Positions 35,212 through 52,930 of a stretch of 64,000 nucleotides of DNA are shown piece by piece (position 1 is the first letter of the stretch; each line of letters opens with the position of its first letter). Position numbers and translations under genes: made by a program. The notes under the pieces are model-generated. The model ran no database searches. It saw only the letters and a list, made by a program, of their open reading frames with translations, and had not been told where the DNA came from. Location: positions 2,108,001-2,172,000 of the forward strand of contig CM026547.1 in NCBI GenBank assembly GCA_014905635.1. Reading direction: 5' to 3'. The DNA is from Scenedesmus sp. PABB004. Its lineage: Eukaryota.

Positions 35212-37008
35212 GCACGGGTCGGCCAGCGCCGCGCCGGCGCGCGGGACAGCAGCCGGGCCGCGCCTGCGGTGGATGGCGTATGTGGGGATGAGGATGGGCT
35301 GCCCCGGCGGCACCGCCAGGCTGCCGAGGCGCATGGGCGCGTGCGTGACGCGGATCGTGCCGGAGGAAACCACCGGGTACAGCCGCATCGACTCGTTGAT
35401 CACCGCGCTGAGGTACCGCAGCTGCGAGAGCTGCTCCCACGCGAGCGGCGGCGGGCGCGGGCGCTCGGGCGACGCGAGCAGCCCCAGCGCGCCCAGCTCC
35501 GCCGCCACGCGCGCCTCGACGCCCGGCGTCGTCGCGACGAGCGCCAGCGTCCAGCAGATCGTGTGCGCGGTCGTCTCAAAGGCCGCGCCCCAGAAGAGCC
35601 CCAGCTCCGCAAGGATCTGCTCGCGCTCCAGCGGCGCCCCTACGACCAGCGGGCGGCACGGCGGCGCGGCGCGGCGCGTCGGGCCCCCGCGCGCGGCTGC
35701 GGCGAGGCCCGACCGGGCGGCGGCGCGCGCCGCAGCCGCACCCGTGTCGTCGCGGCAGGCGAGCAGGTGCGCAGCGAGCGTGTGCGGCGGCGGCGGCTCC
35801 GCCTCCAGGTCGGCCAGCAGCTCCTCCACCAGCGCGCTCATGCGCCCGCCCCAGAAGACCAGGTCGCGGGCCGCCTGCGGCGCGCAGCTCGGCGGCGGCG
35901 CGGAGCGGCGGTCGGCGCGCAGCGGCGGCCGGCGCGCAGCGGCGCGGCGCCGGCGCCGCCGCCGCCCCCGCAGCCACGCCGGCAGCCGGCGCAGCTGCTG
36001 CGCGCGCTGCGCGCGGTCCTGACCTTGCGCCAGGAGAACCAGCGGTTGAGGGGGTTGTTGCGCGCCTGCATGGCCACGACCAGGTGCCGCATGGTCTCCA
36101 CCACCGCGGGCCCGCACGCGAGCACGCGGCACCCCGCGTCCACGCCCGCGCCCGCGCCGCCGCCGCCCGTGGCCCGCAGGTCGCGATCAAACGCGGCGAG
36201 GCCGACGACGTCGACCGTCACGCGCTGCGCGGCGGCGTCCAGGTCCTGCGCCGCGTCGGGCCCCGCCGCCGCGAGCTCGGCGACGAGGCGCTCCGTCGCG
36301 ACGTTGATGTGGGGCAGCGCGGCGCGCAGGTGGGACATCGTCAGGGCGGACGCCGCCGCGCGGCGCACGGAGCGCCACGTGGGGCTGGTCTCGAGGGACG
36401 ACAGGATGTTGGCGCGCGGGGGGCGCGCAAAGACGTTGAACTGCGGCGGCGGCCAGCCGCCGGCGGCGCGGCGGCGGCCAGGTCGGGCGCGCGCCGCCGG
36501 CACACACAAGAACAACGTGCGCGGCGCGGCGCGGCGCGGCGCACCATCGCGTACGGCGGCAGGTGCTTGTGGAGCTTGTGCGGGCCGGGGCGCAGCAGGG
36601 GCTGGTAGAGGGCGGGCGCCGTCACGACGAGCACCTGCGGGGCGGCGCAGAGGGGCGGCGGGGGCGAGGTTGCTTGCTCAGGCGGCGCGGCGCCCCGGGG
36701 GTGCGTGGCGCCCAGGCGCCTGGCCAGCCCCCTCGCTGCTGCACGTGGCGGCTCACCGGGCGCAGGAGGAAGCGGATGCGGTACACGGGCCCCAGGTCGC
36801 GCGCCCACTGCTGGAACAGGAGGTACGAGCACCCCGGGCGCTCAAGGAGCACAAGCAAGTGCCCCAGCAGCCAGTGGCCGCCGGGCTCTGGAACCCCCCG
36901 CGTCGCCCACCGGCGAGACAGCACGGAGGACGGCTGCAGCTGCTGCACCAGGAGCCAGCACAGCGCCGCCGCGAGCGCGGCGCCCGCCGCCCCGAGCGCC
37001 GACAGCAT
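34530..37008 (-). CDS. Cytochrome P450 (ER-anchored), ~8 exons
   Basis: N-terminal anchor plus PEPGGHWLLGHL, I-helix GAAFETTAHT, K-helix ESMR, FRPERW, haem motif FLPFSAGTRSCAG. Confidence 0.95.
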
Positions 37009-37023
37009 CGCCGGCAGGCGGCG

Positions 37024-37098
37024 CCCTGCTGGCGCACCTGCTGGCGCACCTGCTGGCGGCACCTGCTGGCGCACCTGCTGGCGGCACCTGCTGGCGGC
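37024..37098. repeat. Six tandem 12-13 bp units GCACCTGCTGGC(G) just upstream of the P450 ATG
   Basis: Directly visible; five units contain CACCTG. Confidence 0.9.
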
Positions 37099-37632
37099 GC
37101 CGCGGGCTGCCTGCGCGCACCACCGCGCCCGGGCCGGGCAGGCGCGAAAGGCAGACAGAGCTGCGGCACGTGTCCAGACCAGGCGCCGCCGCCGGCAGGT
37201 GCCGCGCGGCGTCGGCGGGGCGTCGCCGCCGCGGAGCAGCAGCGCTGTGCCGACCGCTGGGCCCGCGCGTGGCCGCCGCTGAGTGCCGGAACGGGAGTGC
37301 GTGGGGATGCGCCTGGCGGCGTGCCGGGCGGTCCGGGAGGTCGCGCGAGAGCCGTGCGGGCAGTCGCGCGGGCTTTGGCACGGCGCCGCGTGTAACACAG
37401 CGCGAGGAGCACGCTGAGGCCCTCTCTCGACGTCTAGCCCAACTCTTTCGACCGTGCGCTGTGCCGCCGCGAGGCGATCACCCGCGCGCGCGGTCTGGCT
37501 GAGCCATCAGCAGCAGCGCCGCTCTCGCACCGCCGCACAGGCCCGCCCGCCGCCGCGCAAGGCCGCAGCAGCAGCAGCAGGAGAAGCAGCAGCAGCATGC
37601 GCCTGCGCCATGCCGCCGCCTAGCAGCGGCGC

Positions 37633-40600
37633 ATGCGCAGCGGCGCGGGCGCGCTCGCCGCTGCGGCGCGTGTCATGCTGAGCCGCTGCCGGCACGGCGG
37701 CGGCGGCGCGGGGGCGGGCGCGCCGGCGGCCAGCCGACCGCTGCGGCTGCTGAGCGCGTCAGCGGCGGGGCCGGGCGGCGCCGCGGACGCCGGCGCCGCC
37801 GGCCCGGCCGCTGGCCGCCCGGCCGCCCGGCCGGCGCCGTCGCCGTCGCCGCGCCCGCGGCCGCGCACAGCCGCCAGCCCGCGCCCGGGGCCGCCGCGGC
37901 GGGCGGCGGGGCCGCCTGTGCTGGCGCGCCGCTCGCTCGCCGTGAGCGGCCCGCCGAGGCAGGGCGCCGCCGCCGGCAGGGCCGGCGGCAGCGGCGGCGG
38001 CAGCGGAAGCGGCGGCGGCAGCGGCAGCGGCAGCGACGGCGGCCAGCCCCGGCCGCGCGCGCCAGACGTCAACGTTACGGTGCGCGGCACGGTGCGCACC
38101 ATCACGTTTGAGAGCGGCGACACCGGCTTCAAGATCGTGAAGCTGCAGGTGTGCGGCAGCAGCGCAGCAGCGCTTGCGCGCGTCCAGCCGCGCGTCCAGC
38201 CGCGCGCCGGCGGCAGCCGACCCGCCCGCCCGCGCGCGCCCGGCAGGTGGCGGAGGGCGAGACGCTGCCGTCGGCGGACGCCGCGACCGCGCAGGCGGGC
38301 GCCGCGGTGCTCGCTGCGGCGAGCACGGGCGTGCCGCGCAGCGGGCGCAGGAGCGAGCTGCTCGCGGCGGTGGGGACCATGCCGGACGTCACGGTCGGCG
38401 CTGAGCTGGAGCTGGGCGGGCGCTGGGAGAAGCACAGCCAGTACAACTGGCAGGTCCGGTGAGGCCGCCGCGCGGGGCGCGGGGCAGGCGCGCAGGGCTC
38501 TGCTGCCTGCGCGAGCAACGCACAGCGAGGTGGGGCGTGAGCCGCCGCCGCCGCCGCCGCCGCCCGGCGCGCTCTGGCCGGCCCGCGCAGCGTTCTGGAG
38601 TACCGGCAGCTGCCGCCGAGCGACCCTGCCGCCTACCTGGTGGGCGCCATCCGGGGCGTGGGGCCGAAGACCGCGGCCGACATTGTGGCCGCGCTGGGCG
38701 GCGAGCGCGTCAAGGCGGTGCTCAGCAGCGACGCGGCGACCGCCGTCGCGGCGCTCTCGGCGGTGCGGGGCATCGGCCCCGCCAAGGCCGCCGACATCAA
38801 GCGCCAGTGGGACGAGAGCACGGGTCCGTGCGCCCCGGCGCGTCAGAGCGCGCGCATGCGCACGAGGGGCGGCGAGCACCGACACCCTGACTCGCCGCGC
38901 CCTCTGCTGCGCGCTGCGGCGCGCTCCCGCCCGCCCGCGCGCCGGCGGCGCAGGCTCGCACGACGCGTACGCCTGGCTGCAGGAGCTGGGCGTGCCGCCG
39001 TCGGCCGCCAAGAGCGTGTCGCTGTGGTGGGGCGAGCGCACGCGGGAGCAGGCGTCGCGCAACCCGTGGGCGTTTGTGCGCTGCCGCGGCTTCAAGCTGG
39101 CGCACGCCGAGGCGGTCGCGGCGATGCTGGGGCTCGACCCCGGCTCGCTGCACCGCGCGGCCGCGGTGCTGCGGCAGGTGCTGCTGGCCGCCGCGCGCAA
39201 CGACAGCGCGCAGGGCCTGCCGTGGCACGAGCTCGAGCGCCGCGCGCTCGAAACCCTGCGCGGCGCGGGGCGCAGCGCGGCGGCGCTGACGGGCCGCCGC
39301 GGCGGCGCCCTGCGGCCGTGGCCCGCGGGCGCGGGCCTGCGCCCGGGCGCGGAGCTGCTGGTGGCGGAGGGTGACGTGATGGTCGAAGAGGCGGCGCGCG
39401 TCTCGCAGCCGCGCACGGCGCACGGCGCGGCGCCGCCGCCGGCGCTGTTTGACTTTCGCGCCGTGGACGCGGGCTGGTCGGACGACGCGTTTGTGCTGCT
39501 GGCGGAGCTGCACAAGGCGGAGTGCCGCGTGGTCGACTCGCTCGTCGCCGCGGCGGCCGACTGCCACAAGGCCCTCGCGCGCCTGCACAGGGCGCACGCG
39601 GGCGCCGCGGCTGGCGGCGACGGTGCGAGCAGCGGCGAGGGCGGCAGCAGGAGAGGCAGGAGCAGAGGGAGCAGCCGGAGCAGCAGCGCCAGCGGCGGCG
39701 AGCAGCAGCAGGCGCTGCCGTACCCGCTGCTGCCGCTGGGCGCGGACGACCATGCCTGGCTGCGGCGGTGCGAGGTGGAGCTCAGCGCCGAGCTGGGGCG
39801 GCCCGTGGCGTTGAACGACGGCCAGCGCCACGCGCTGGTGCTGGCGGCGCAGCTGCCGGCGATGGTGCTGACGGGCGGGCCGGGGTGCGGCAAGACGCTT
39901 GCGAGCCAGGCGTTTGCGCGGCACGCGCTCAGCCAGGGGGAGGGGCTCGCCATGGCGGCGCCGACAGGTGGGCCGGCGCGGGGGGGTGGGGGGGGCACAG
40001 CGGGCGGCGTCGCACGCGCCGGCCGCAGCGCGCGCGGCGCTGCTAGCTCAGCGCCGCCGCCCACCGGCGCCGCTGCAGGCCGCGCCGCGCAGCGGCTGCA
40101 GGAGGTGGTGTGCGGCGCCTCGCAGGACGCGCCCGCGTCGACCATCCACCGCCTGCTCGGCTACCGCGGCCAGCGGGCGCCGTCGTCGGCCGCCGCGGCG
40201 CAGACGCGGCGCGGCACGGAGGGCGCCGCCGGCGCGGACGCCGCCCGGGGCCCGGACGGCGTCGCCTTGCCGGCATGGCCCGCCGACGAGCTCGCGCTGG
40301 GGCGGCTGTGCGAGCACAACGCTGGCAACCCGCTGCCGCACCGGCGCCTGCTGTTGGATGAGGTCAGCATGATGGACCTGCCCCTCTCCGCGGCGCTGCT
40401 GGCGGCGATCGAGTGAGGGCCGCGGCCACCGCGGGGAGAGGGGGGAGGCAGGGCGGGGCGGGGCTGGGGCGGGCCGCGGCCACGGCCGCGGCGCTGGCCA
40501 CGCCCGCCGCCCTCACCGCGCGCGCCACGCGCTGCGGCGTCGTCCCCGCAGCGAGCGCCGCAGCTCGCTGCTGCTCGTGGGCGACCCCGACCAGCTGCCG

Positions 40601-42054
40601 CCGGTCGGCCCTGGGCGGCCGCTCGTGTGCGCGCTGGCGGCGGGCCTGCTGCCCTGCGTTGACCTGCGCCAGATCTACCGCAGCGCCGCCAGCAGCGCCA
40701 TCGTCAACGCAGCGCACGCCATCAACCGCGGTGCGCACCGCCTCGTTGCGCCGCGCGCCGCGCTGGGGGCGCGCCCCTCCCCGCCCCGCCCCTCCCCGCC
40801 CCGCTGCACCGGCGCCGACGCGCCGCCCGCGCCGCGCCGCGCCGCGCCGACGCGCCCCGCCAGGCGCGACGCCGGTCATCACGACCTGGGACCTCATGCC
40901 CGGCGGCGTGCACGACGACCCGGCCGCGCTCGAGGCGGCCCTGGCGGCGCGGCTGGCGGCGGTGCCGACCGACCCCGACAGCGGGCAGCTGGCGCTGCCG
41001 AGCAACGCGCTGCTGCTGCGCCTCCCAGACGACGCCGCGGCGCACCACGTCGCCGACGCGGCGCTCGCGGCGCTGCGGGTGCTGCTGCCGCGCCTCGGCG
41101 GCGACGCGGCGCTGGACGTGCAGGTGCTGAGCCCCACCAAGCGCGGCCCCGCGGGCACTGGCCAGCTCAACGCGCACCTGCAGGCGCTGCTCAACCCGCG
41201 CGCGCCGGGCAAGGCCGAGCTGCCCGCGCACCCGCACGCGCATGCGCACGCCGGCGCGGGCGGGGGCGCGTCCGGCGCGGCGGCGGGCTCCGCTGTGGCC
41301 GCGCCGGCCGCGGCGTCGTTGGCGCCGGTGTGGCGCGTGGGCGACCGTGTGGTGCACCTGGTGAACGACCCCGAGCGCGACGTCTACAACGGCGACCTGG
41401 GCTACGTCGAGGGCGCCGACGCCGCCCGCCGGCGCCTGGTCGTGCGCTACCCGCCGCGCGGCGGCGGCGCCAGCGCCGGCGGCGCGCCGCGCTTCCACCG
41501 CGTTGCGTACGAGGGCGGCGCGGTCAACGACGAGCTGCAGCTCGCGTGGGCCGTCACCGTGCACAAGGCACGTGCGCGCCCGCGTGGGCTCGGCAGTGGG
41601 CTCGGCAGTGGCGGCGAGCCGCGCGTGCCGGCGCGTGCGCACGCGCGCCGACCGCGCCGCGCCCGCCCCCGCCCGCCGCCCGCAGGCGCAGGGCGGCGAG
41701 TTTCCGCTCGCGCTGCTGCCGCTGCACCAGTCGCAGGGCGCGCTGCTGCTGCAGCGGTCGCTGCTGTACACGGCGGTGAGCCGCGCCAAGCAGCTGCTGC
41801 TGGTGGTGGGCACCCAGGCCGCGCTGCAGCAGTGCATCGACAACCCCGGACCCAGCGCGGCGGCCGCGGTCGCCGGCGCGGCGGCTGGCGCGCCCGGCAG
41901 CGGCGGCGGCGGCTGGCAGGCCCCGGGCGCGGCGGCGGCGGCGGCGGACGTGCGGCTGGTGCAGAAGCTGCGCGCCGCGGCGGCCGCGCGGGGGCTGCGG
42001 CCCTTCCCGCGCCTCGTGTACGGCGCGGACAGGTGGAGCGCGGCGCCCGGCTAG
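37633..42054 (+). CDS. recD2: Bacterial-type RecD2 (SF1B 5'-3' DNA helicase, RecD/TraA family) with an organellar targeting peptide, ~8 exons
   Basis: N-terminal OB-like GTVRTITFESGDTGFKIVKL, HhH motifs AIRGVGPKTAADIV and VRGIGPAKA, NPW..GFKLA. Helicase motifs LTGGPGCGKT, APT|GRAAQRL, STIHRLL, LDEVSMMD, VGDPDQLPPVGPG, LRQIYR, VYNGDLG, AVTVHK|AQGGEF, RSLLYTAVSRAK. Confidence 0.93.
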
Positions 42055-42108
42055 CCAGGCTAGGCGGAGGGGAGGGGAGGGGCCGGCGCGCGAGGGTGCG
42101 TCCATTTC

Positions 42109-42113
42109 TGTAA
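42109..42113 (+). terminator. TGTAA polyadenylation signal of recD2
   Basis: 55 nt after the TAG at 42054. Confidence 0.65.
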
Positions 42114-42333
42114 GCCCACGCACGCGCTAGCGCAACACCCGTGCAAGTCAGCCCGCTCCCCAGACAAGCCCCCCTCCCTGCAACCTCCGCTCGCCTAAAA
42201 GCGCAGAGCGGTCAGTGCTCACACCTCCGCTTTGGACGCGAGAGAAGAGCATGCTTCAAGGCGCCGACCAAGGCCCCGGCCGCCCGCCGCGGTCAAGGCG
42301 AGCGCGCGCAAAGCTGTGTGCATCTGTTTGTGA

Positions 42334-42588: not shown

Positions 42589-45500
42589 TCACGCGGCGGA
42601 CGCAAACGCCGCGGCGGCGGCGCTGCAGTTCTTCTCCTCCTCCTTGGAGCACTTGTGCTTGCTGTAGTAGGTGCAGTCCGACCTGCACACCGCGAGCTTG
42701 CACTTGCCGCTGCTGCAGCGGCAGCCGGGGCAGCAGTCGGCGTCAGCGCGGCACTGGGCGTCGGCCTTGGCGCAGGGCCAGGCCTCCGGCGCGCGGCAGT
42801 AGCCGACGCGGCTGGCGTGGTCCCACTTGCAGATGAGGCCGTCGCAGCACGTGGCGCCGCCATAGCTGCGCGCGGGCGGCGCGGGCGGGGCGGGGCGGGG
42901 TGGCGCAGGCGGCGGATTCGCCGCCAGCCACGGCAATGGGCGGGCAGGGCGGGCACGCGGCCGCCGCGCCGCCGTCGCGCGGCGCGTCCGCACCAGTTGC
43001 CGCAGACCTCGCCCTCCTTGCCGCACTGGCGCGTGGGCAGGCAGCGGAAGCTGGGGCTGTAGTACGTGTGCGGCCGGGCCTTGGCCAGCGCCTGGCAGGA
43101 GGAGCCCGCGCAGCAGGGGTCCTTGCAGCCCGCGCCGGTGCAGGGCGTGCACTCGAGCCACGCGCCCGTGCATGTCGCGCAGGTGTCGGGCGCGCAGGCC
43201 GCGCCAAACTGCCAGCGCGTGGCGCCGGAGCAGCCCGAGGCGAGGGTCTGCACGCACGTGCCGCTCTGCGTGCAGCACGCGCCGACGCTGTGGCGGCAGG
43301 AGGGCACGCGGGCGGGCGCGCGAGCTCAGCAGCGGCCCGGCGCAACAACCGCTGCCCGGCGAGCTGCACCGCGGCAGGCGAGCAGCGCGGCTGCTCACCA
43401 GACGCCCTTCTGCCCGCAGGTGCCTCCCGCGCTCCACGTGCTCGGCGCCGGGCACTGGGCGAGGCTGTGTCTGTTGGTGCACGCGCCGGTCGTGGGGTTG
43501 CAGCACGCGCCGGTGGCCTGCGGGCGGCGGGCGCGGGGTGAGGCAGGTGCGCGCCGCGCGCCGCGTGCCGGCGGCGGCGGCGGTGGGCTGCGCACCAGGG
43601 CTTTGACGGTGGCGCTGGCGCTGCTGGTTGACACGATGCTGCCGGGCGCGAGCACGGAGGCCACGTTGATGATCTCGCCCTCCTGCGTGACCCGTGCGGC
43701 GATCACCACGCGCCGGCTCTGGCCCGCGGGGATGCTGGCAAAAAGGCAGCTCACGACCGACCCGCCGCCCTCGAGCGCGCACTCCTTGGCCGGCAAGACC
43801 GACACAAAGTCGAGGCCGGCCGGCAGCGGGTCCCGGACAACGACGCCCGTCGCCACGCCGTTGCTCGACGCGGCGATGATGGTGTAGCGCACGACGCCGC
43901 CCACGGTGGGCCGCGTGGGCGCGCCGGCCTTGCTGAGCGTCACCGTGGGGGCCGCGGCCACGCGCACGCAGCAGTCGGCCGCGGTCAGACTGTTGCTGGG
44001 GGAGGTGACCTTGACCGCGCTCGCATTGAAGTAGCTCCCCGCGGGGCAGCTGAACCGGCTGTTGTCCCAGTTGAACGCGCCGCAGCTCGGGACAAACTGG
44101 CGGGCGCGCCGCGCGCGGGCAGGCGGGCGGCGTCAGGCGGGGCGTGGCAGGGCGCGGCACGCGCGAGCCCCGCGCCGCCCGCAGTGGGCGCGCGCCGCCG
44201 GCCGGGCGCGCACCGCGAGCGACATGGTGGCGTCGCCGCCGGCGGCCCGCACGAGGGTGCCGGCGGCCAGCACGCCGTTGCCGGCGGCGGTGGCAAAGTT
44301 ATTGAGCGCGCCGGGGCCGGTCGCGACGGCGGTGAGCGTGGCGGTGCGCGTCTCGCCCTCCTTCAGCGTGCCCCAGTCGCACGTCATCGTCTGACCGGAC
44401 AGGGAGCACTCTGCGCGCGCCGCGCAGTGGGCGACGGGCGCGCACGGGGGTGGGCTCGTGCGCGCGCGCCTGCGCGGCGCCGCGCGCCGTGGCGGCCCCG
44501 CGGCAGGGCGCGGCGCGCACCCTTGGGGCTGACGGCCGTGGGCTTGAGCGGCGCGATGAGGGCGTCGACGAGCTTCACGCTGCGCACCTCACCAAGGCCC
44601 GCGTTGCGCACCTGCGCGCAGCGGGCGGCGGGCGGGCGCGCCCTCGGCCCGCGCGCCCCGCGCCCGCGGCGCCGGCCGCCGCGGCGCGCGGCAGCAGGTT
44701 GGCTGCGCCGCGCCGTGTGGGCCGGGCGGGGCGCGCCCGCACCGTCATGGTGAAGTTGCACGGCTCGTTGATGCGGATGGCTGCCCCGGGGCCGACCTTG
44801 GTGACCGTGATGTCGGGCGCGCCGGCGGGCGTGAGGTCGATGGTGCAGCACTTGGCAACCGACGCCTCGGTGCTCGCGATGTTGGCGGTGTCGAGCACCA
44901 GGCCCAGCGGGCAGGGGAAGCGCCCGCCCGTCGGCGTGAACGCGCCGCACGTGGGCGTGTACTGCGGGCGGGCGGGCGCGGCGCGGGGTCTGCGGCGCCG
45001 GCCGGCGGCGGGGGGGGCTGCGCTGGGCCGGCGCGCGCGCGTGCGCGCACCACAAAGGTGTTGATCGCGTCGCTGTTGTCGCCCTCAAAAACGTCATCGT
45101 CGGCGGTCACAAACACCGCGTTGCCGACCACGCCCGACGACAGCGCCTTGACCCGGATCGTGCCCTCAACCGCGGCGCCGGCGGGGACGGTGCCGACGGT
45201 GCACGTCACGACCTGCCTGCCCGCGGACGGCGTCATCACGCAGTCTGCAGGGCGAGTGCGGGGCCGGGCGGCAGGGCAGGGCGGCGGGGTTGGGCGGCGC
45301 CGGCGCGGGCGGGCGCGGCGCGGCCTGGCGGCCGGCCCAGCTGGCGGAGCTCGCGCGCGGCCGGCGCTCACTCAGGGAGGCGGGCGACACGGCCACAAAC
45401 TGCACGCTGGCGGGGAGGGCGTCGGTGGCGACCACGTTGCGCGCCTCGCCCGTCCCACGGTTGGTCAGGGTGATGGTGTAGTCAAACTCAGACCCCGCGG

Positions 45501-48500: not shown

Positions 48501-51500
48501 CCCGTCTTTGTGAGCGCGACGTCGGGCTGCGGCACGGGCACGAGGACGCAGCACACGGCCTGCGTGGGCGGCGTGGCCTGCAGCGCGCCGCCGTCAAAGC
48601 TGTAGCCCGTGGGGCAGGCAAACTTGTCGCCCGCGGCGTTGATGAAGCCGCAGCGGGGCAGGAAGACCGAGGCCGAGGCGCTGTCGGCGTTGTTTGAGAG
48701 GTCGATGTCCTGCGCCGAGCTCACGGTCGCGACGTTGTTGAATGTGCCCTGCGCGCCACCGGCAAAAGGGGTGTGGGTGCGTGTGTGTGTTTGTGGTTTT
48801 GGGGGGGGGGGAGACAAGTCACGCGGCCTGACCGCGGGCCGGCGCGCGCGCACCTGCGTGCTCGAGCGGGTGGTGACCCGGACCGTCACCGAGCTGCCCG
48901 CGCTCATGTTGCCCAGGTTGCACGTCACGGTCTGGCCGGCGATGCCGCACGCCGGCGACGGCGTGACCGACACCGGCACGAGCGGCGCCTGCAGCGTGTC
49001 GACGAGCTGCACGGCGGTGGAGGGGTCGGCGCCGCGCGCGTCTACGCGCAGCACGAAGTCAAAGTTGGTGTCTACCGCCACCGCGGTCGCGGGCGCGGTC
49101 TTGGTGAGCGCCAGGTCTGGGAAGAGCACGCGGTTGCAGCAGGTCGCGAGGCCCGGCGAGGTGCTGCTCGCGGCGCCGGCGTTCACGGTGTAGTTGGCCG
49201 GGCAGGTAAACGCGGCGCCGGCGGTCGTAAAGACGGCGCAGGTGGGCACGTACTGCGTGGCGCGGCGGCGGCGGGGCCGGCGGGGACGTCGGCGGCTCGG
49301 TGCCGCCCGCGCATCACAACGCCGCACGCCGGCCGCTCGCGCTGCTGCCGCCCCAGCTCCGGCCCTGCCAGGCAGTGCGCTGCCTGGCGGGCTCACCAAG
49401 GTGACGCTGACCTGCGGGCGGCAGCGGCGGGCGGGCGCTCAGCGATGCGCCTGCCGCGCCTCAGCCCGGCCGCGGCGGCGGCCGCCGCGCCCCGCACCGT
49501 GTCGGTGTTGTCGGCCAGGTTTGCGTCGAGCAGGGCGGCCGCGTCCACGCGGTTGGCGACCGCGCCGAGGGTCGGGCCGACCGCCTGGGTCGTGACGGTG
49601 ATGTTGTAGGTGGTGCCGACCGGCACCGTGCCAAAGTCACACGACAGGACCTGGGCGCTGATCGTGCACACTGCGCGCATGCGACGGCGGCGGTGGCGGC
49701 GGCGTTGGCGCGCCGGCGGGCGCGCGCGCGCGCGCTTGCATGGGCGCGCGCGCACCAGTGGCGCCGGGGCTGGGCGTGACGGCGACGCTGAGGGGGGTGA
49801 GCCCCGCGGGAAAGGTGTCTGCCAGTGTGACGTTCTTGGCCTTGAATGTCCCGCGCGAGCTGAGCTGGATGCGAAAGTCAAACGTCGAGGTGAGCGGGAT
49901 CAGCGTGGCGGGGCCGTACTTGCGGACCTGCGCGCCGCGTGTGGGGGCGAGGGCAGGCCGCGCGGCGGGCCCTCGGCGCGTGCGGGGCCGGGGCTGCGGC
50001 GGGCTCTCCGCGCGCGGCGCGGGCCGCGGCGGCGGCGTGCGGGCTGGGCGGGCCACGCGCGGCGCGCGCCTCCAGGTCTGCCCCCGGGGTCTCCTTGCAG
50101 CAGGTGGCGGCGCTGGGCGGTGCGAGCAGGGCGGAGGTGGCGTTGTAGACGAGGTCGCCGGTGCAGACGTACGTCGCGCCGTTGCCGTCGGTGGAGCCGC
50201 ACGCGGGGACATACTGCGCGCGCGCCGCGGCCGCGGGGCGCGGCTGAGGCGCAGCGCGCGCGCGGCCTGGTCGCTCGCCGGCAGCGCGCGGAGCGTGGGC
50301 AGCGCGCTGCGCGTGCCGCGCGCGCACCGTGGTCACGGAGACGGTGTTGGAGGGCACCGCTGCGCCGGCGCCGATGTAGGCGTTGGCCGTGTTGGCAAAC
50401 GTGTTGGCGGTGCTGGCCTGGGCCGTGATGGTGATGGTCACGGCCGTGTCCTCGGGCACGTCGCCCAGGCTGCACCTCACGCGCTGGCCAGTGACGGTGC
50501 AGGCGCCGCCTGGCGGCGGGGGGCGCGGCGGCGCAGCGGCAGGCGCGTCGGGCGCGCTGTGGCACGACTGCTGCCGTGCGGGGCGCACGCGCGGCGGGTG
50601 CCGGGAGGCAGCGGGCGGGCGCCAGGAGGCACGCGCTGCGGCGCTCACTGCTGGCCGACGCGGACTGCGGCACGACGTTGGTTGGCAGGTCGTCGATCAC
50701 TGTCACGTTCACGGCCGCGATGGTGCCCGTGGAGTTGAGGATGAGGCTGAAGTTAAACGGAGCGCCAACCTGGATCAGGGACGCGGGCCCCGCCTTGGCG
50801 ATGGCGACCGAGGCCGTGCCCAGCACCACGATCTGCGGCGCGCGAGCGCGACGGGGGCGGCACAGAGACGGAGGCGCGTGGCGGGCGCGCGCGGCGGGGA
50901 CCGGCCGGCGGGAGCGCGGCGGCAGCGCCGGCCGGCCGCGGTGGCCCCGCGCGCTGCGCGCGCGCCGCGCGCGCCGCACCCTGCAGCAGGTCGCGGCGTC
51001 GGTGGTGGTGGAGTTGACGTTTGCGGCATCGAGCACGCTCGACCCGGTGCAGGGGTACTCCTGGGCCCCCGCGGGCGCGGTCGGGTCGTAGAGGCCGCAT
51101 GTGGGAGTGAAGACGATGACGCTCGCGCTGTCCGTGTTGTCGCCTAAGATGAGATCGTTTGTGGCCGTGGACGTGCCGCTGATGGGGTACGACCCGCCCG
51201 CGCTCGCCTGGCAGGTCAGCGTCACTGCGGCGCGGCCGGGCGGCGGTGCGGGGGCGCGTGGCGCGGGCGTGCGAGGGGCGGGCGAGCTGGGCCGCGCTGC
51301 TGCGGAGTGGCGGTGGCGGTGCGCAGCCGCCGCTGGCCCCGCCCGCGCGCGCACACCCGTGATGCTGCTGCCCGCCGTCATGTTGCCAAAGTTGCAGGAG
51401 AGCGCCGTGCTGCTCGTCAAGGAGCACGCGGGAGTGGGCGTCACCGCCGAGCAGGTCACGCCGGCGGGCAGCGTGCTGGTCAGCGCCGCGCTCTCCGCGG

Positions 51501-52930
51501 TGGAGTCTCCGACCGACTCTACCAGCAGCGCGACGTTAAAGTTGGTGCTCGGCAGCACCGAGCCAGCGGGACCTGATGCCGTCGTCCTGAGGTTTGCCGT
51601 GTTAGCCGGGGTGTAGCAGCACGTGGCCTGGGCCTTCGTGGCGGTCTCAATGTTCTGGTAAGTTCCGTTGCGGGAGGTGTTGAAAAACGTGCCCGTGGCG
51701 CAGGCGAACGACGCGTTGTACTGCGCGGCGGGCGGCGCAGCGGTGGCGACGGCTGCGGCGCGGGCGGGGGCCGCCAGGGCGTGGCGGTGGGCTGCTAGGA
51801 GGCGCGCGCACCATGTAGAGGCCGCACGTGGGCACAAAGGTCTGCACGTTGATTGGCAGCACGCCGCTGCTGCATTTGCTCGACGTCGCGGGGCCGCTGA
51901 CCATCCAGTGGCTTGGCGTGCTGTTCGTCGCGGCGCACGCTGAGCCCGTAAGGCTCTGGCTCCTGCGGGTGAGGCGGCGGCGTCGTCGGCGCCTGCCGGC
52001 GCTGCGCCGCCCGCGCGCAGCGCCCCAGCGCAGTGCGCGCGCCGGCAGCCCGGCCGTCGCCGGCCCCGGCGGCTGCGGCGAGCGCGCACCACCCGATCGC
52101 CCAGTCCAGGGGCTGGCCGCCGCAGGGCCGGGTCGACACGTTCAGGGCGGGCATGACGCAGTCCACCACAAAGCCGGGCACGCTCACGTTCACGTTCCCG
52201 GAAGCCACGTCCCCTGCACCGCGGCGGCGCGCCGCGCTGGCGCAGCGCGCGGGGCGCGCCGCCGCCGCGCCGGGCCTCCCGGGTGCCGCCGCGCGCGCTG
52301 CGCCAGCGCCCGCCTCGCCCGCACCGCAGCAGTCGTTGTCGCTCTGTGCGGTGACGGTCGGGTCCAGCGCAATCTTGGTGCACTTGCCGTTGGCCTGCCT
52401 CGCATAGATGCCGATGTCGTACCGGTTCGTGCTGGCCGACAAGGTGACGACGAGCGTGCCCGCCATGCGCTGGCCGCTGTAGCACACCGCGCACGTCTTG
52501 CCCGCGAGCGCGGGGTCACAGCACGGGGCGCCCGGCAGCGACGCGCCGGCGGTGACAGCCGGGGCGAGGATGCTGGCGCCGATGATCCTGAGGTCGTTCG
52601 CGGTGCAGCCGGTGCCGCCGTCGGCGGCGATGCAGTTGGAGTCAAACGCGGGGCCGTAGTCCGCGGCGCTGCAGTTGGTCTGCGGCGGCCGGCGGCGGCG
52701 GCGTCGGCCGGAGCGCGCCGCGCGCTCTCCGCGCCCAGCCCGCGCCGCGCCGCGCGCACCTGCAGGAGCCGGCGCCGCAGCGCGCCCAGCGTCGTGCCGT
52801 AGCTCCCCCGTGTGCTGCTGACGGTGGCCGGCGCGTCGTCGCGCATGAGGGGGGTGAAGAGGTCGACGTCCAGCGCCACCGCGCGCGCCAGGCCCGCCAC
52901 CACCAGCAGGAGCGCGTACGCGCGCCTCAT
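42589..52930 (-). CDS. Giant secreted Cys-rich protein: signal peptide, RRLL propeptide, N-terminal Cys domain, 11 x [4-Cys module + DUF11/TIGR01451-like Ig domain], C-terminal Cys-rich repeats; ~30 introns
   Basis: MRRAYALLLVVAGLARAVA...RRRLLQ. Repeated DLxVxK.GP...VG..F.YT..V.N.G...A..V..TD.LP.G...VS...C......V.C.LG.L.AG......N.A.......N signature, each preceded by xPTCG...C...CC. Stop at 42589. Confidence 0.9.

What the first reader, a model, noticed from the sequence alone, without database searches (positions are those of the whole stretch)
37633..42054. Complete bacterial RecD2 helicase domesticated as an intron-containing, organelle-targeted algal gene
Seen: the RecD2-specific N-terminus (OB-like strand, two HhH motifs, NPW...GF) and all SF1B motifs are intact, split by ~7 spliceosomal introns. 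It has host-like GC, a TGTAA signal and a ~140-aa Arg/Ala/Ser/Gly-rich N-terminal extension, so contamination is unlikely. Established: RecD2 acts without RecBC in Deinococcus, Bacillus and others in fork rescue and RecA modulation. Eukaryotic SF1B helicases are normally Pif1/HELB, and the known plant organellar toolkit centres on RecA, RecG, RadA and Twinkle. Inference: a little-described organellar DNA repair/replication component acquired from bacteria.
Basis: partly seen in the sequence, partly recalled or inferred. Interest (0 to 1): 0.75.

Follow-up and report, generated by a model that had tools for sequence, protein, structure and literature searches.

The report
Intron-split RecD2 helicase gene of green algae
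A very GC-rich green alga carries an intact, intron-interrupted nuclear gene for a bacterial-type RecD2 DNA helicase that is shared by many green algae, probably works in an organelle, and has apparently never been studied.

Summary
Window 37633-42054 (+) reads as an 8-exon, 7-intron gene (six GT-AG introns, one GC-AG). It encodes a 1186-aa RecD2-type SF1B helicase. Every exon piece but the first matches NCBIfam TIGR01448 in collinear order. Pfam finds the RecD2-specific OB_YrrC, HhH, HHH_RecD2 and SH3_13 domains. The model keeps 95 of 114 columns that are near-invariant in bacterial RecD2. It is not Pif1/HELB and not a contaminant.

The interpretation needs correcting. This is not a lineage-specific domestication. 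The protein sits in a 47-row clade (SH-aLRT 100) with hypothetical proteins of Picochlorum, Nannochloris, Parachlorella, Auxenochlorella, Chlamydomonas eustigma, Chara, Mesotaenium and Spirogloea, and the clade's branching mirrors the chlorophyte/streptophyte split. Relatives' ORF fragments break at this gene's exon 4 and 5 borders, so those introns are old.

The nearest bacterial group contains cyanobacterial RecD2. A cyanobacterial sister is not rejected (p-AU 0.595); a chlamydial one is (p 0.0012). This fits endosymbiotic gene transfer without proving it.

Organelle targeting is inferred only. The evidence is an acid-poor 145-aa N-terminal extension, and 29 of 39 clade members also carry an extension. 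No searched paper describes an algal RecD2. Verdict: a new member of a known kind, moderately interesting.

The parts
37633..38148 (+). Exon 1: ATG, N-terminal extension (aa 1-145 = 37633-38067) and the first strands of the OB fold (VNVTVRGTVRTITFESGDTGFKIVKLQ)
   Evidence: An in-frame stop lies 3 codons upstream of the ATG. No family hit for this piece alone. Extension composition.
38149..38246 (+). Intron 1 (98 nt, GT-AG, phase 0)
38247..38458 (+). Exon 2: rest of the OB fold (Pfam OB_YrrC match about 38349-38453)
   Evidence: PF23139, E 2e-6, 28.1 bits, cut-off 27; TIGR01448 positions 27-59
38459..38590 (+). Intron 2 (132 nt, GTGAGG...CAG, phase 2)
38591..38823 (+). Exon 3: tandem helix-hairpin-helix (HHH_5 match about 38649-38810)
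   Evidence: PF14520, E 3.7e-7; TIGR01448 positions 78-136
38824..38953 (+). Intron 3 (130 nt, GT-AG, phase 1). Its position is shared by relatives' ORF fragments.
38954..39967 (+). Exon 4: HHH_RecD2 domain (38962-39195, with the NPW...GF motif), a lineage-specific linker with low-complexity inserts, and the start of helicase domain 1A with Walker A TGGPGCGKT (39871-39897) and AAPTG
   Evidence: PF14490, E 7.6e-9; AAA_19/AAA_30; TIGR01448, 60.3 bits; K634 kept
39968..40078 (+). Intron 4 (111 nt, GT-AG, phase 1), directly after APTG. Homology of 9 of 10 aligned fragment relatives breaks here.
40079..40412 (+). Exon 5: motif Ia (GRAAQRL), a lineage-specific insert, and motif II LLLDEVSMMD (D752-E753 = 40357-40362)
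   Evidence: Eight short fragments from other genomes span exactly model residues about 654-772.
40413..40551 (+). Intron 5 (139 nt, GTGAGG...CAG, phase 2)
40552..40730 (+). Exon 6: motif III (LLLVGDPDQLPPVGPG) and motif IV (LRQIYRS; the near-invariant Q is S here)
   Evidence: TIGR01448 positions 434-488, 53 bits; Q814 to S
40731..40863 (+). Intron 6 (133 nt, GT-AG, phase 1)
40864..41567 (+). Exon 7: domain 2A, motif V (VLSPTKRGPAGTGQLN), the SH3_13/2B domain (about 41328-41450) and the start of motif VI (TVHK)
   Evidence: PF18335, E 1.5e-15, 57.2 bits; 74 bits; PDB 3e1s
41568..41685 (+). Intron 7 (118 nt, GC-AG: AAG|GCACGT...CGCAG). No GT donor keeps the frame and the VHKAQGGEF motif.
   Evidence: comparison with P0014. 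Inferred, with no RNA evidence.
41686..42054 (+). Exon 8: motif VI (AQGGEF ... LLYTAVSRAK), the UvrD_C_2 match (41686-41808), a low-complexity C-terminal tail and the TAG stop (42052-42054)
42109..42113 (+). TGTAA, the polyadenylation signal typical of chlorophyte algae (role recalled, not tested)
   Evidence: sequence read

Best explanation
SHOWN. Window 37633-42054 (+) is an intact nuclear gene of a very GC-rich green alga, with 8 exons and 7 spliceosomal-type introns. It encodes a 1186-aa RecD2-type SF1B helicase with the full RecD2 architecture: N-terminal OB fold, HhH pair, HHH_RecD2 domain, RecA-like domains 1A/2A, and an SH3-like 2B domain. The ATPase and translocation motifs are preserved.

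The protein belongs to one well-supported clade of eukaryotic proteins found in chlorophytes and streptophyte algae. The clade's internal branching follows the organisms, and its members share intron positions. The gene was therefore already present in an early green-lineage ancestor. Its nearest bacterial relatives are a group that contains cyanobacterial RecD2.

INFERRED.
- The gene probably came from the cyanobacterial plastid ancestor by endosymbiotic gene transfer.
- The acid-poor, Ala/Gly/Pro/Arg/Ser-rich 145-aa N-terminal extension is an organellar presequence. The mature enzyme would then be imported into the plastid and/or the mitochondrion.
- There it would act as bacterial RecD2 does. 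It would load on 5' single-stranded tails, use ATP hydrolysis (Walker A K634, D752-E753, arginines of motifs IV and VI) to move 5'->3' and unwind duplex or branch-migrate D-loops. This would help replication forks through obstacles and restrain or dismantle RecA-type recombination intermediates in the multicopy, recombination-dependent organelle genome.
For: Gene model and signals.

Family:
- TIGR01448 is the best NCBIfam hit for 7 of 8 exon pieces, in collinear order.
- Six Pfam domain types typical of RecD2 were found.
- The model keeps 95 of 114 columns that are >=90% identical among 45 bacterial rows. Algal relatives keep 85-103; RecD-like outgroup rows keep 68-73.
- For the closest full-length relative P0014 (42% identical to the model), the top PDB hit is D. 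radiodurans RecD2 3e1s at E 5.7e-51. RecD scores 1e-20 and Pif1 1e-9.
- Of the 12 eukaryote-clade proteins scanned, 9 pass the 500-bit TIGR01448 cut-off.

Clade:
- 39 of 86 rows, SH-aLRT 100 (FastTree 99).
- Still 39 rows after adding 10 IMG/VR rows.
- 47 of 124 rows, SH-aLRT 100, with a streptophyte subclade at 92.

Intron conservation: relatives' ORF fragments start or stop at model residues about 318-333, 660-664 and 654-658/769-772. The exon borders are at 321, 658 and 770. In the alignment, 9 of 10 fragments lose homology right after APTG.

Donor:
- With Chara as query, the named bacterial hits in the list are almost all cyanobacteria.
- In the LG+C20+F+G4 tree of 54 rows, the algal clade is sister to a 14-row group of cyanobacteria plus an Aureispira/Bacteriovoracaceae/Desulfobacteraceae/Legionella set, with SH-aLRT 95.
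- The AU test does not reject algae+cyanobacteria (p 0.595; the constrained tree is 6.59 lnL better). It rejects algae+Chlamydiota (89.26 lnL worse, p 0.0012).

Presequence:
- D+E is 1.4% in the first 140 aa against 9.0% in the rest.
- 29 of 39 clade rows carry 29-277 residues before the OB fold. The stop-to-stop bacterial frames have a median of 18, which is an upper bound.

Activity: the 5'->3' helicase and D-loop branch-migration activity of RecD2 is taken from a passage of PMC10804225.
Against: - No RNA evidence for expression or for any splice junction, including the GC-AG intron. No run was listed.
- The spliced protein could not be scored against TIGR01448. The exon pieces sum to about 313 bits, under the 500-bit cut-off.
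- Three of the 12 clade members scanned also fall below the cut-off: Chara 497, C. eustigma 432, P0021 482.
- One near-invariant motif IV residue is changed (Q814 to S), and 19 of 114 conserved columns differ.
- In an 80% GC genome any low-complexity stretch is Ala/Gly/Pro/Arg-rich, so the extension's composition is weak evidence. No targeting predictor was available.
- Ten of the 39 clade rows show no extension. They look like truncated gene calls, but this was not shown.
- The cyanobacterial sister relation is not resolved under LG+G4. In the mixture-model tree the algae are sister to cyanobacteria plus a mixed bacterial group, not to cyanobacteria alone. The algae+cyanobacteria grouping was named after the hit list was seen.
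- The window row has deviant amino-acid composition (tree warnings).
Confidence: 0.7

Rival explanations
1. The helicase acts in the nucleus. On this reading the N-terminal extension is only GC-driven low-complexity sequence or a disordered regulatory tail, and the protein supplements Pif1-type SF1B helicases on nuclear DNA.
For: No localisation predictor or experiment was available. Low-complexity Ala/Gly/Arg/Ser inserts also occur inside the protein. Extension sequences are not conserved between relatives.
Against: An extension before the OB fold recurs in 29 of 39 clade rows despite lacking sequence conservation. Many extensions start with Arg/Ser/Leu-rich, acid-poor stretches. The internal inserts do contain Asp/Glu, whereas the first 140 residues have only 2 acidic residues. 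The gene's nearest bacterial relatives include cyanobacteria. From established knowledge, bacterial-type recombination proteins in plants and algae (RecA, RecG, RadA) are organellar.
Confidence: 0.2
2. The gene is a recent, lineage-specific horizontal transfer from a bacterium or virus into this alga.
For: The protein is unmistakably bacterial in type. RecD2-like genes do occur on IMG/VR viral contigs: 407 of 560 pattern-matching stretches encode a relative (tblastn E <= 1e-3), at 31-40% identity among the 80 kept.
Against: - The window protein sits inside a 47-row eukaryote clade (SH-aLRT 100) with chlorophyte and streptophyte members.
- None of 10 viral rows enters that clade.
- Seven introns, with three positions shared by relatives.
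- GC3 of 0.96 matches the host.
- The best bacterial or viral identities (31-40%) are lower than those to algal fragments (40-51%).
Confidence: 0.03
3. The locus is bacterial contamination or an expressed-looking pseudogene, with no function in the alga.
For: Extreme GC and long open frames on all six frames make spurious ORFs common in this window. No RNA data exist.
Against: The coding signal jumps frame exactly at GT/GC...AG borders, which a bacterial gene would not do. The spliced frame is open for 1186 codons with 95 of 114 conserved positions kept. Composition equals that of the surrounding window. A TGTAA signal follows the stop.
Confidence: 0.03

Closest known systems
Bacterial RecD2 (NCBIfam TIGR01448; Deinococcus radiodurans RecD2, PDB 3e1s/3gp8; Bacillus subtilis RecD2/YrrC)
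   Same: Same domain order (OB_YrrC, HhH, HHH_RecD2, 1A, 2A with SH3-like 2B, UvrD_C_2). Collinear TIGR01448 matches. Walker A, Ia, II, III, V and VI motifs kept. 3e1s is the best PDB relative.
   Different: - Nuclear and split by 7 introns.
- About 145-aa N-terminal extension.
- Several low-complexity inserts, so 1186 aa against about 720-770 aa.
- Q814 to S in motif IV.
- Exon pieces sum to about 313 bits, under the 500-bit equivalog cut-off.
Cyanobacterial RecD2 (e.g. records named Leptolyngbya sp. PCC 7375, Acaryochloris sp. CCMEE 5410, Symploca, Trichocoleus; annotated 'SF1B family DNA helicase RecD2')
   Same: Nearest named bacterial group by hit ranking with the Chara orthologue, and in the mixture-model tree. 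The algae+cyanobacteria grouping is not rejected.
   Different: About 31-36% identity to the Chara query. No introns, extension or inserts. An exclusive sister relation is not demonstrated.
Uncharacterised green-algal 'hypothetical proteins' (Chara braunii CBR_g34284, Chlamydomonas eustigma CEUSTIGMA_g6165.t1, Parachlorella kessleri N2152v2_008909, Nannochloris Ndes2437B_g06050, Auxenochlorella ACKKBG_A20460, Picochlorum Picsp_1/1232)
   Same: Same clade (SH-aLRT 100), same architecture, N-terminal extensions.
   Different: At most 42% identical to the window protein among the rows compared. The trebouxiophyte-type members carry a second HhH module in the linker that the window protein lacks. 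Their closest unnamed relative to the window is P0014.
RecD of RecBCD (TIGR01447) and eukaryotic SF1B helicases Pif1/HELB
   Same: Shared SF1B motor core and 5'->3' polarity class (established knowledge).
   Different: TIGR01447 scores lower than TIGR01448 on every exon piece. RecD1 lacks the N-terminal OB/HhH module (PMC1193525 passage). Pif1 chains reach only E about 1e-9 against 5.7e-51 for RecD2. No PIF1 Pfam hit on any exon piece at E <= 0.01.

Membership tests
RecD2 (TIGR01448, SF1B helicase) | N-terminal OB fold of the YrrC/RecD2 type | tested here: met
   PF23139 OB_YrrC on the exon 2 piece: E 2e-6, 28.1 bits against cut-off 27. TIGR01448 positions 27-59.
RecD2 (TIGR01448, SF1B helicase) | HhH pair plus RecD2-specific HHH domain, absent from RecD1 | tested here: met
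   PF14520 HHH_5: 31 bits (cut-off 27). PF14490 HHH_RecD2: 35.8 bits (cut-off 27).
RecD2 (TIGR01448, SF1B helicase) | Intact SF1B motor motifs (Walker A, Ia, II DE, III, IV, V, VI) | tested here: met
   95 of 114 columns that are >=90% identical in 45 bacterial rows are kept. These include TGGPGxGK, PTGRAAxR, DE, GDxDQLPxVGxG, H/Q/G/E of motif VI and YT..R. Exception: Q814 to S in motif IV.
RecD2 (TIGR01448, SF1B helicase) | SH3-like 2B domain inserted in 2A | tested here: met
   PF18335 SH3_13: E 1.5e-15, 57.2 bits against cut-off 41.
RecD2 (TIGR01448, SF1B helicase) | Whole-protein score over the curated 500-bit equivalog cut-off | tested here: inconclusive
   Only exon pieces could be submitted: 14.8+26.9+60.3+33.7+53+74+50.3, about 313 bits. 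The spliced protein was not scored. Of the 12 eukaryote-clade proteins scanned, 9 pass (519-626 bits) and 3 fail (432-497).
RecD2 (TIGR01448, SF1B helicase) | ATP-dependent 5'->3' DNA unwinding, acting without RecBC | not testable with these tools
   Needs biochemistry. No whole genome is held for the window, so absence of RecB/RecC could not be checked.
Pif1 / HELB (eukaryotic SF1B) | Best match to Pif1 or HELB models or structures | tested here: not met
   No PIF1 Pfam hit on any of 8 exon pieces at E <= 0.01. Pif1 PDB chains score E about 1e-9 against RecD2 at 5.7e-51 for the closest full-length relative.
Organelle-targeted nuclear gene product | N-terminal extension relative to bacterial homologues, acid-poor and rich in Arg/Ala/Ser | tested here: met
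   145-151 aa before the OB fold, with D+E 1.4-2% and R+K 14%. 29 of 39 clade rows have 29-277-aa extensions.
Organelle-targeted nuclear gene product | Positive call by a targeting predictor, or experimental localisation | not testable with these tools
   No TargetP/PredAlgo-type tool and no proteome data were available here.
Endosymbiotic gene transfer from the plastid ancestor | Eukaryote sequences monophyletic and branching like their hosts | tested here: met
   47-row clade with SH-aLRT 100. Streptophyte subclade (Chara, Mesotaenium, Spirogloea) at 92; the rest are chlorophyte-named or unnamed.
Endosymbiotic gene transfer from the plastid ancestor | Sister to, or nested in, cyanobacteria | tested here: inconclusive
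   Sister to cyanobacteria plus a 4-row mixed bacterial group (SH-aLRT 95) under LG+C20+F+G4. Unresolved under LG+G4. AU does not reject algae+cyanobacteria (p 0.595) and rejects algae+Chlamydiota (p 0.0012).

The most novel reading that the evidence does not exclude
RecD2 is an unrecognised, cyanobacterium-derived component of the organelle (most likely plastid) genome-maintenance machinery. On this reading it has been kept from the common ancestor of green algae through chlorophytes and streptophyte algae (Chara, Zygnematophyceae) but lost in land plants. It would supply the 5'->3' helicase and anti-recombinase activity that RecBCD-less organelles otherwise lack. Its loss would have coincided with the rewiring of the plant organellar toolkit around RecA, RecG, RadA and Twinkle.
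Probability: 0.35. Interest if true: 0.65.

Novelty: new member of a known kind. Interest (0 to 1): 0.42.

Why it matters
Organelle genomes of algae replicate and repair largely by recombination, yet the helicases involved are poorly known. The textbook list comes from land plants.

A conserved, intact RecD2 in chlorophytes and streptophyte algae is everywhere annotated only as 'hypothetical' or 'RecD/TraA family'. It was not mentioned in any paper found here. It is therefore a concrete, testable candidate for fork rescue or RecA control in plastids or mitochondria.

No land-plant protein appeared among the 120 listed hits of the Chara query. Its apparent absence there would be a clean case of toolkit turnover at the water-to-land transition.

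For this window alone, the result is ordinary: a good gene model for a member of that family.

Tried and rejected
- Whole-genome search of the window's assembly: no genome is held.
- First word-indexed protein search with the frame-1 read-through: 1 hit only, because low-complexity words swamped the candidates.
- Sequencing runs: none was listed, and no RNA holder was listed.
- Earlier scan notes: nothing relevant by sequence, words or genome.
- ESM Atlas on exon 4: only bacterial RecD2-fragment clusters, which added nothing on taxa.
- Attempt to sample Cyanobacteriota through the record titled 'Candidatus Melainabacteria' (L078/G001):
  - 50 of 201 genomes of its phylum have a TIGR01448 match over the cut-off.
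  - 0 of 201 have Photo_RC (PF00124), and L078 sits among Actinomycetota in the trees.
  - The sample was therefore not cyanobacterial and the test is void.
  - Two genomes in those tallies (G002, G049) are flagged unpublished.
- cluster-member look-ups: they gave sources but no organism names for 20 proteins.
- MAFFT --auto in a script timed out. The first IQ-TREE run did not finish.
- AU test under the mixture model did not finish in three calls. It was replaced by LG+G4.
- Fetching algal DNA to see the relatives' splice sites directly:
  - P0003 found nothing.
  - A3 used the generic pattern GGPGCGKT and returned bacterial-type loci. The three with the widest coverage (L236, L238, L259) showed bacterial-type matches: unbroken in one frame in L236, two segments in one frame in L259, two segments in different frames in L238.
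  - Intron conservation therefore rests on protein-fragment boundaries only.
- The guess that the divergent upstream neighbour is a P450 got no Pfam support.
- Structure prediction and complex prediction were not run. Sequence evidence for the fold was already decisive, and the spliced protein could not be submitted.

Full report
**1. What is there**

The window is uniformly very GC-rich, at 0.73-0.82 in 2-kb windows, so long open frames occur on all six frames. A three-frame reading of 37400-42300 shows RecD2-like peptide blocks that jump frame. Inspection of the borders and assembly in a script give eight exons:
- 37633-38148
- 38247-38458
- 38591-38823
- 38954-39967
- 40079-40412
- 40552-40730
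- 40864-41567
- 41686-42054

Together these make 3561 nt: 1186 codons plus TAG at 42052-42054. The seven introns are 98-139 nt long with GC 0.83-0.90. Six are GT-AG.

Intron 7 has no GT donor that keeps both the frame and motif VI. The donor AAG|GCACGT (GC-AG) restores VHKAQGGEF exactly as in the closest relative P0014.

An in-frame stop lies three codons before the ATG at 37633. TGTAA lies at 42109-42113. CDS GC is 0.79 and GC3 0.96, so the composition is host-like. No RNA data could be obtained. The model therefore rests on homology and splice consensus. Further introns hidden in the low-complexity parts of exons 4, 5 and 7 cannot be excluded.

**2. Family**

Seven of eight exon pieces have NCBIfam TIGR01448 (RecD2) as best hit, at collinear profile positions 27-59, 78-136, 315-369, 399-432, 434-488, 580-647 and 648-700. 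RecD (TIGR01447) always scores lower. The exon-1 piece alone has no hit.

Pfam gives OB_YrrC, HHH_5, HHH_RecD2, AAA_19/AAA_30, SH3_13 and UvrD_C_2, and no PIF1.

In an 86-row alignment, 114 columns are >=90% identical among 45 bacterial rows.
- The model keeps 95 of them, including Walker A (K634), PTGRAAxR, D752-E753, GDxDQLPxVGxG, and motifs V and VI.
- Q814 of motif IV is S in the model.
- Algal relatives keep 85-103; two RecD-like outgroup rows keep 68 and 73.

PDB comparison of P0014 puts D. radiodurans RecD2 (3e1s) first at E 5.7e-51, then RecD at 1e-20 and Pif1 at about 1e-9. Exon 7 alone also finds only 3e1s.

The exon pieces sum to about 313 bits, below the 500-bit equivalog cut-off. 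The spliced protein could not be handed to the family tool. Of the 12 eukaryote-clade proteins scanned, 9 pass and 3 fall at 432-497 bits.

**3. Relatives**

A full HMMER scan of 1.84 billion representatives with exons 4-5 gave 818 hits at E <= 0.001. The top ten are 200-550-aa fragments, 40-51% identical, that cover exon 4. Next come 900-1450-aa proteins, then about 720-770-aa bacterial RecD2.

A profile search and a search with the Chara protein attach names:
- Picochlorum
- Nannochloris
- Parachlorella kessleri
- Auxenochlorella
- Chlamydomonas eustigma
- Chara braunii
- eukprot entries I read, from memory of the prefixes, as Spirogloea (three copies) and Mesotaenium

All are 'hypothetical protein' or generic helicase labels. 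Two large unnamed clusters (155 and 188 members, one with a Tara record and contigs up to 1 Mb) look like marine picoalgae. That reading is inference. No land-plant protein is among the 120 rows listed for the Chara query. Only the 8000 candidates sharing most words were scored, so this means 'not found', not 'absent'.

**4. Trees**

| Rows | Method | Result |
|---|---|---|
| 86 rows, 740 columns | FastTree | 39-row clade with all six then-named algae and the window model, support 99 |
| 86 | IQ-TREE quick, LG+G4 | Same 39-row clade, SH-aLRT 100; window + P0014 at 97 |
| 96 (adds 10 of the 80 IMG/VR loci) | IQ-TREE quick, LG+G4 | Clade still 39 rows, SH-aLRT 100; viral rows sit with bacteria |
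| 124 (adds 12 named cyanobacteria, 4 streptophyte-alga rows and others) | IQ-TREE quick, LG+G4 | Clade grows to 47 rows, SH-aLRT 100; streptophyte subclade at 92 against the rest at 86 |

The branching follows the organisms. One eukprot transcript (P0326) falls with the RecD-like outgroup and is a different protein.

For the donor question I reduced the set to 54 of the 124 rows. This dropped the long-branch rows P0103 and P0084 and redundant close relatives.
- Under LG+C20+F+G4 (PMSF, quick), the 14 algal rows (100) are sister to a 14-row group, jointly at SH-aLRT 95. That group holds 7 named cyanobacteria, their unnamed kin P0181, P0031 and P0186, and an Aureispira/Bacteriovoracaceae/Desulfobacteraceae/Legionella set.
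- Under LG+G4 the free quick search does not recover this. However, the tree constrained to algae+cyanobacteria is 6.59 lnL better, with p-AU 0.595.
- Algae + the Chlamydiota row is 89.26 lnL worse, with p-AU 0.0012.

The cyanobacterial grouping was named after I had seen. The chlamydial alternative came from recalled literature on chlamydial genes in plants. Supports are SH-aLRT from short searches. The window row and others have deviant composition.

**5. Intron age**

In phmmer alignments of the model to fragment relatives:
- Homology ends at model residues 660-664 in 9 fragments. Several of them read on for 15-194 residues of unrelated sequence. Exon 4 ends at 658.
- Homology starts at 318-333 in 6 fragments. 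Exon 4 starts at 321.
- Eight 105-148-aa fragments span about 654-772. Exon 5 is 659-770.

In alignment A2, 9 of 10 relatives lose homology immediately after APTG. Introns 3, 4 and 5 therefore predate the divergence of these algae. I could not fetch the relatives' DNA to see the splice sites themselves.

**6. Targeting**

The model has 145-151 residues before the OB fold: A 24%, G 23%, P 14%, R 14%, S 11%, and D+E 1.4%, against 9.0% D+E in the rest. Twenty-nine of 39 clade rows have 29-277 residues there. The other ten start inside or after the OB fold and look like truncated calls. Bacterial stop-to-stop frames have a median of 18. The extensions are not conserved in sequence, as expected of presequences. 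In this genome, however, composition alone is weak evidence. Which organelle is involved is open; a cyanobacterial origin would favour the plastid.

**7. Mechanism (inferred)**

After import and cleavage, the enzyme would act like bacterial RecD2. That enzyme is a 5'->3' helicase with branch-migration activity on D-loops (passage of PMC10804225). The RecD2 lineage is distinguished from RecBCD-associated RecD1 by its N-terminal extension (passage of PMC1193525). In recombination-driven organelle genomes, this activity would aid fork progression and limit RecA-type intermediates.

**8. Literature**

| Search terms | Papers |
|---|---|
| RecD2 + Chlamydomonas | 0 |
| RecD2 + algae | 3 |
| RecD2 + Arabidopsis | 5 |
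| RecD + green algae + helicase + chloroplast | 3 |
| exodeoxyribonuclease V + Chlamydomonas | 2 |
| RecD + helicase + plastid + nuclear-encoded | 1 |

By their listings none concerns an algal or plant RecD2. I saw listings and abstracts only, except for the passages of the two papers cited above. Subscription journals and supplements were not searched.

**9. Verdict**

The gene is a real, intact member of an old green-lineage RecD2 clade, probably derived from the cyanobacterial endosymbiont and probably organellar. It is uncharacterised but present in public databases. It is a new member of a known kind, of moderate interest.

Noticed in passing
window 43395-44132 (-) and 49900-52515 (-): Open frames downstream of the helicase gene carry DUF11 (PF01345) repeats (E 7e-13 and 1.4e-6), a domain mostly known from prokaryotic surface proteins. 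The adjacent frames are Cys-rich.
   Followed up: partly
window 41568-41685: Intron 7 appears to be a GC-AG intron (AAG|GCACGT...CGCAG). No GT donor keeps the frame and motif VI.
   Followed up: partly
L078 / G001 (genome contigs record titled 'Candidatus Melainabacteria bacterium'): Its RecD2 sits inside Actinomycetota next to Saccharothrix (branch lengths about 0.1). The genome is 8.1 Mb, and 0 of 201 genomes of its GTDB phylum have Photo_RC. The record title looks wrong.
   Followed up: partly
P0013, P0017, P0024, P0030 and alignment A1: Trebouxiophyte-type orthologues carry a second HhH module (consensus IGPKTA......WD) in the linker between the HHH_RecD2 domain and domain 1A. The window protein and its chlorophycean-like relatives lack it and instead share RPWP / SGWSDDA / LHxAE blocks.
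   Followed up: no
L118 (IMG/VR contig, 43.9 kb): A RecD2 on a contig classed as viral nests inside the cyanobacterial RecD2 clade. It may be a cyanophage or a prophage-flanking host gene.
   Followed up: no
P0326 (eukprot TRINITY transcript, 1589 aa): A second eukaryotic RecD-like protein groups with the RecD-like outgroup rather than with the algal RecD2 clade.
   Followed up: no
window 36622-37506 (-): A divergently oriented open frame starts about 130-400 nt upstream of the helicase ATG. My guess that it is a P450 N-terminus got no Pfam support.
   Followed up: partly
P0325, P0327, P0328: Three near-identical copies of the orthologue occur in one streptophyte-alga gene set (branch lengths 0.016-0.029). 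This is consistent with recent duplication or polyploidy in that species.
   Followed up: no
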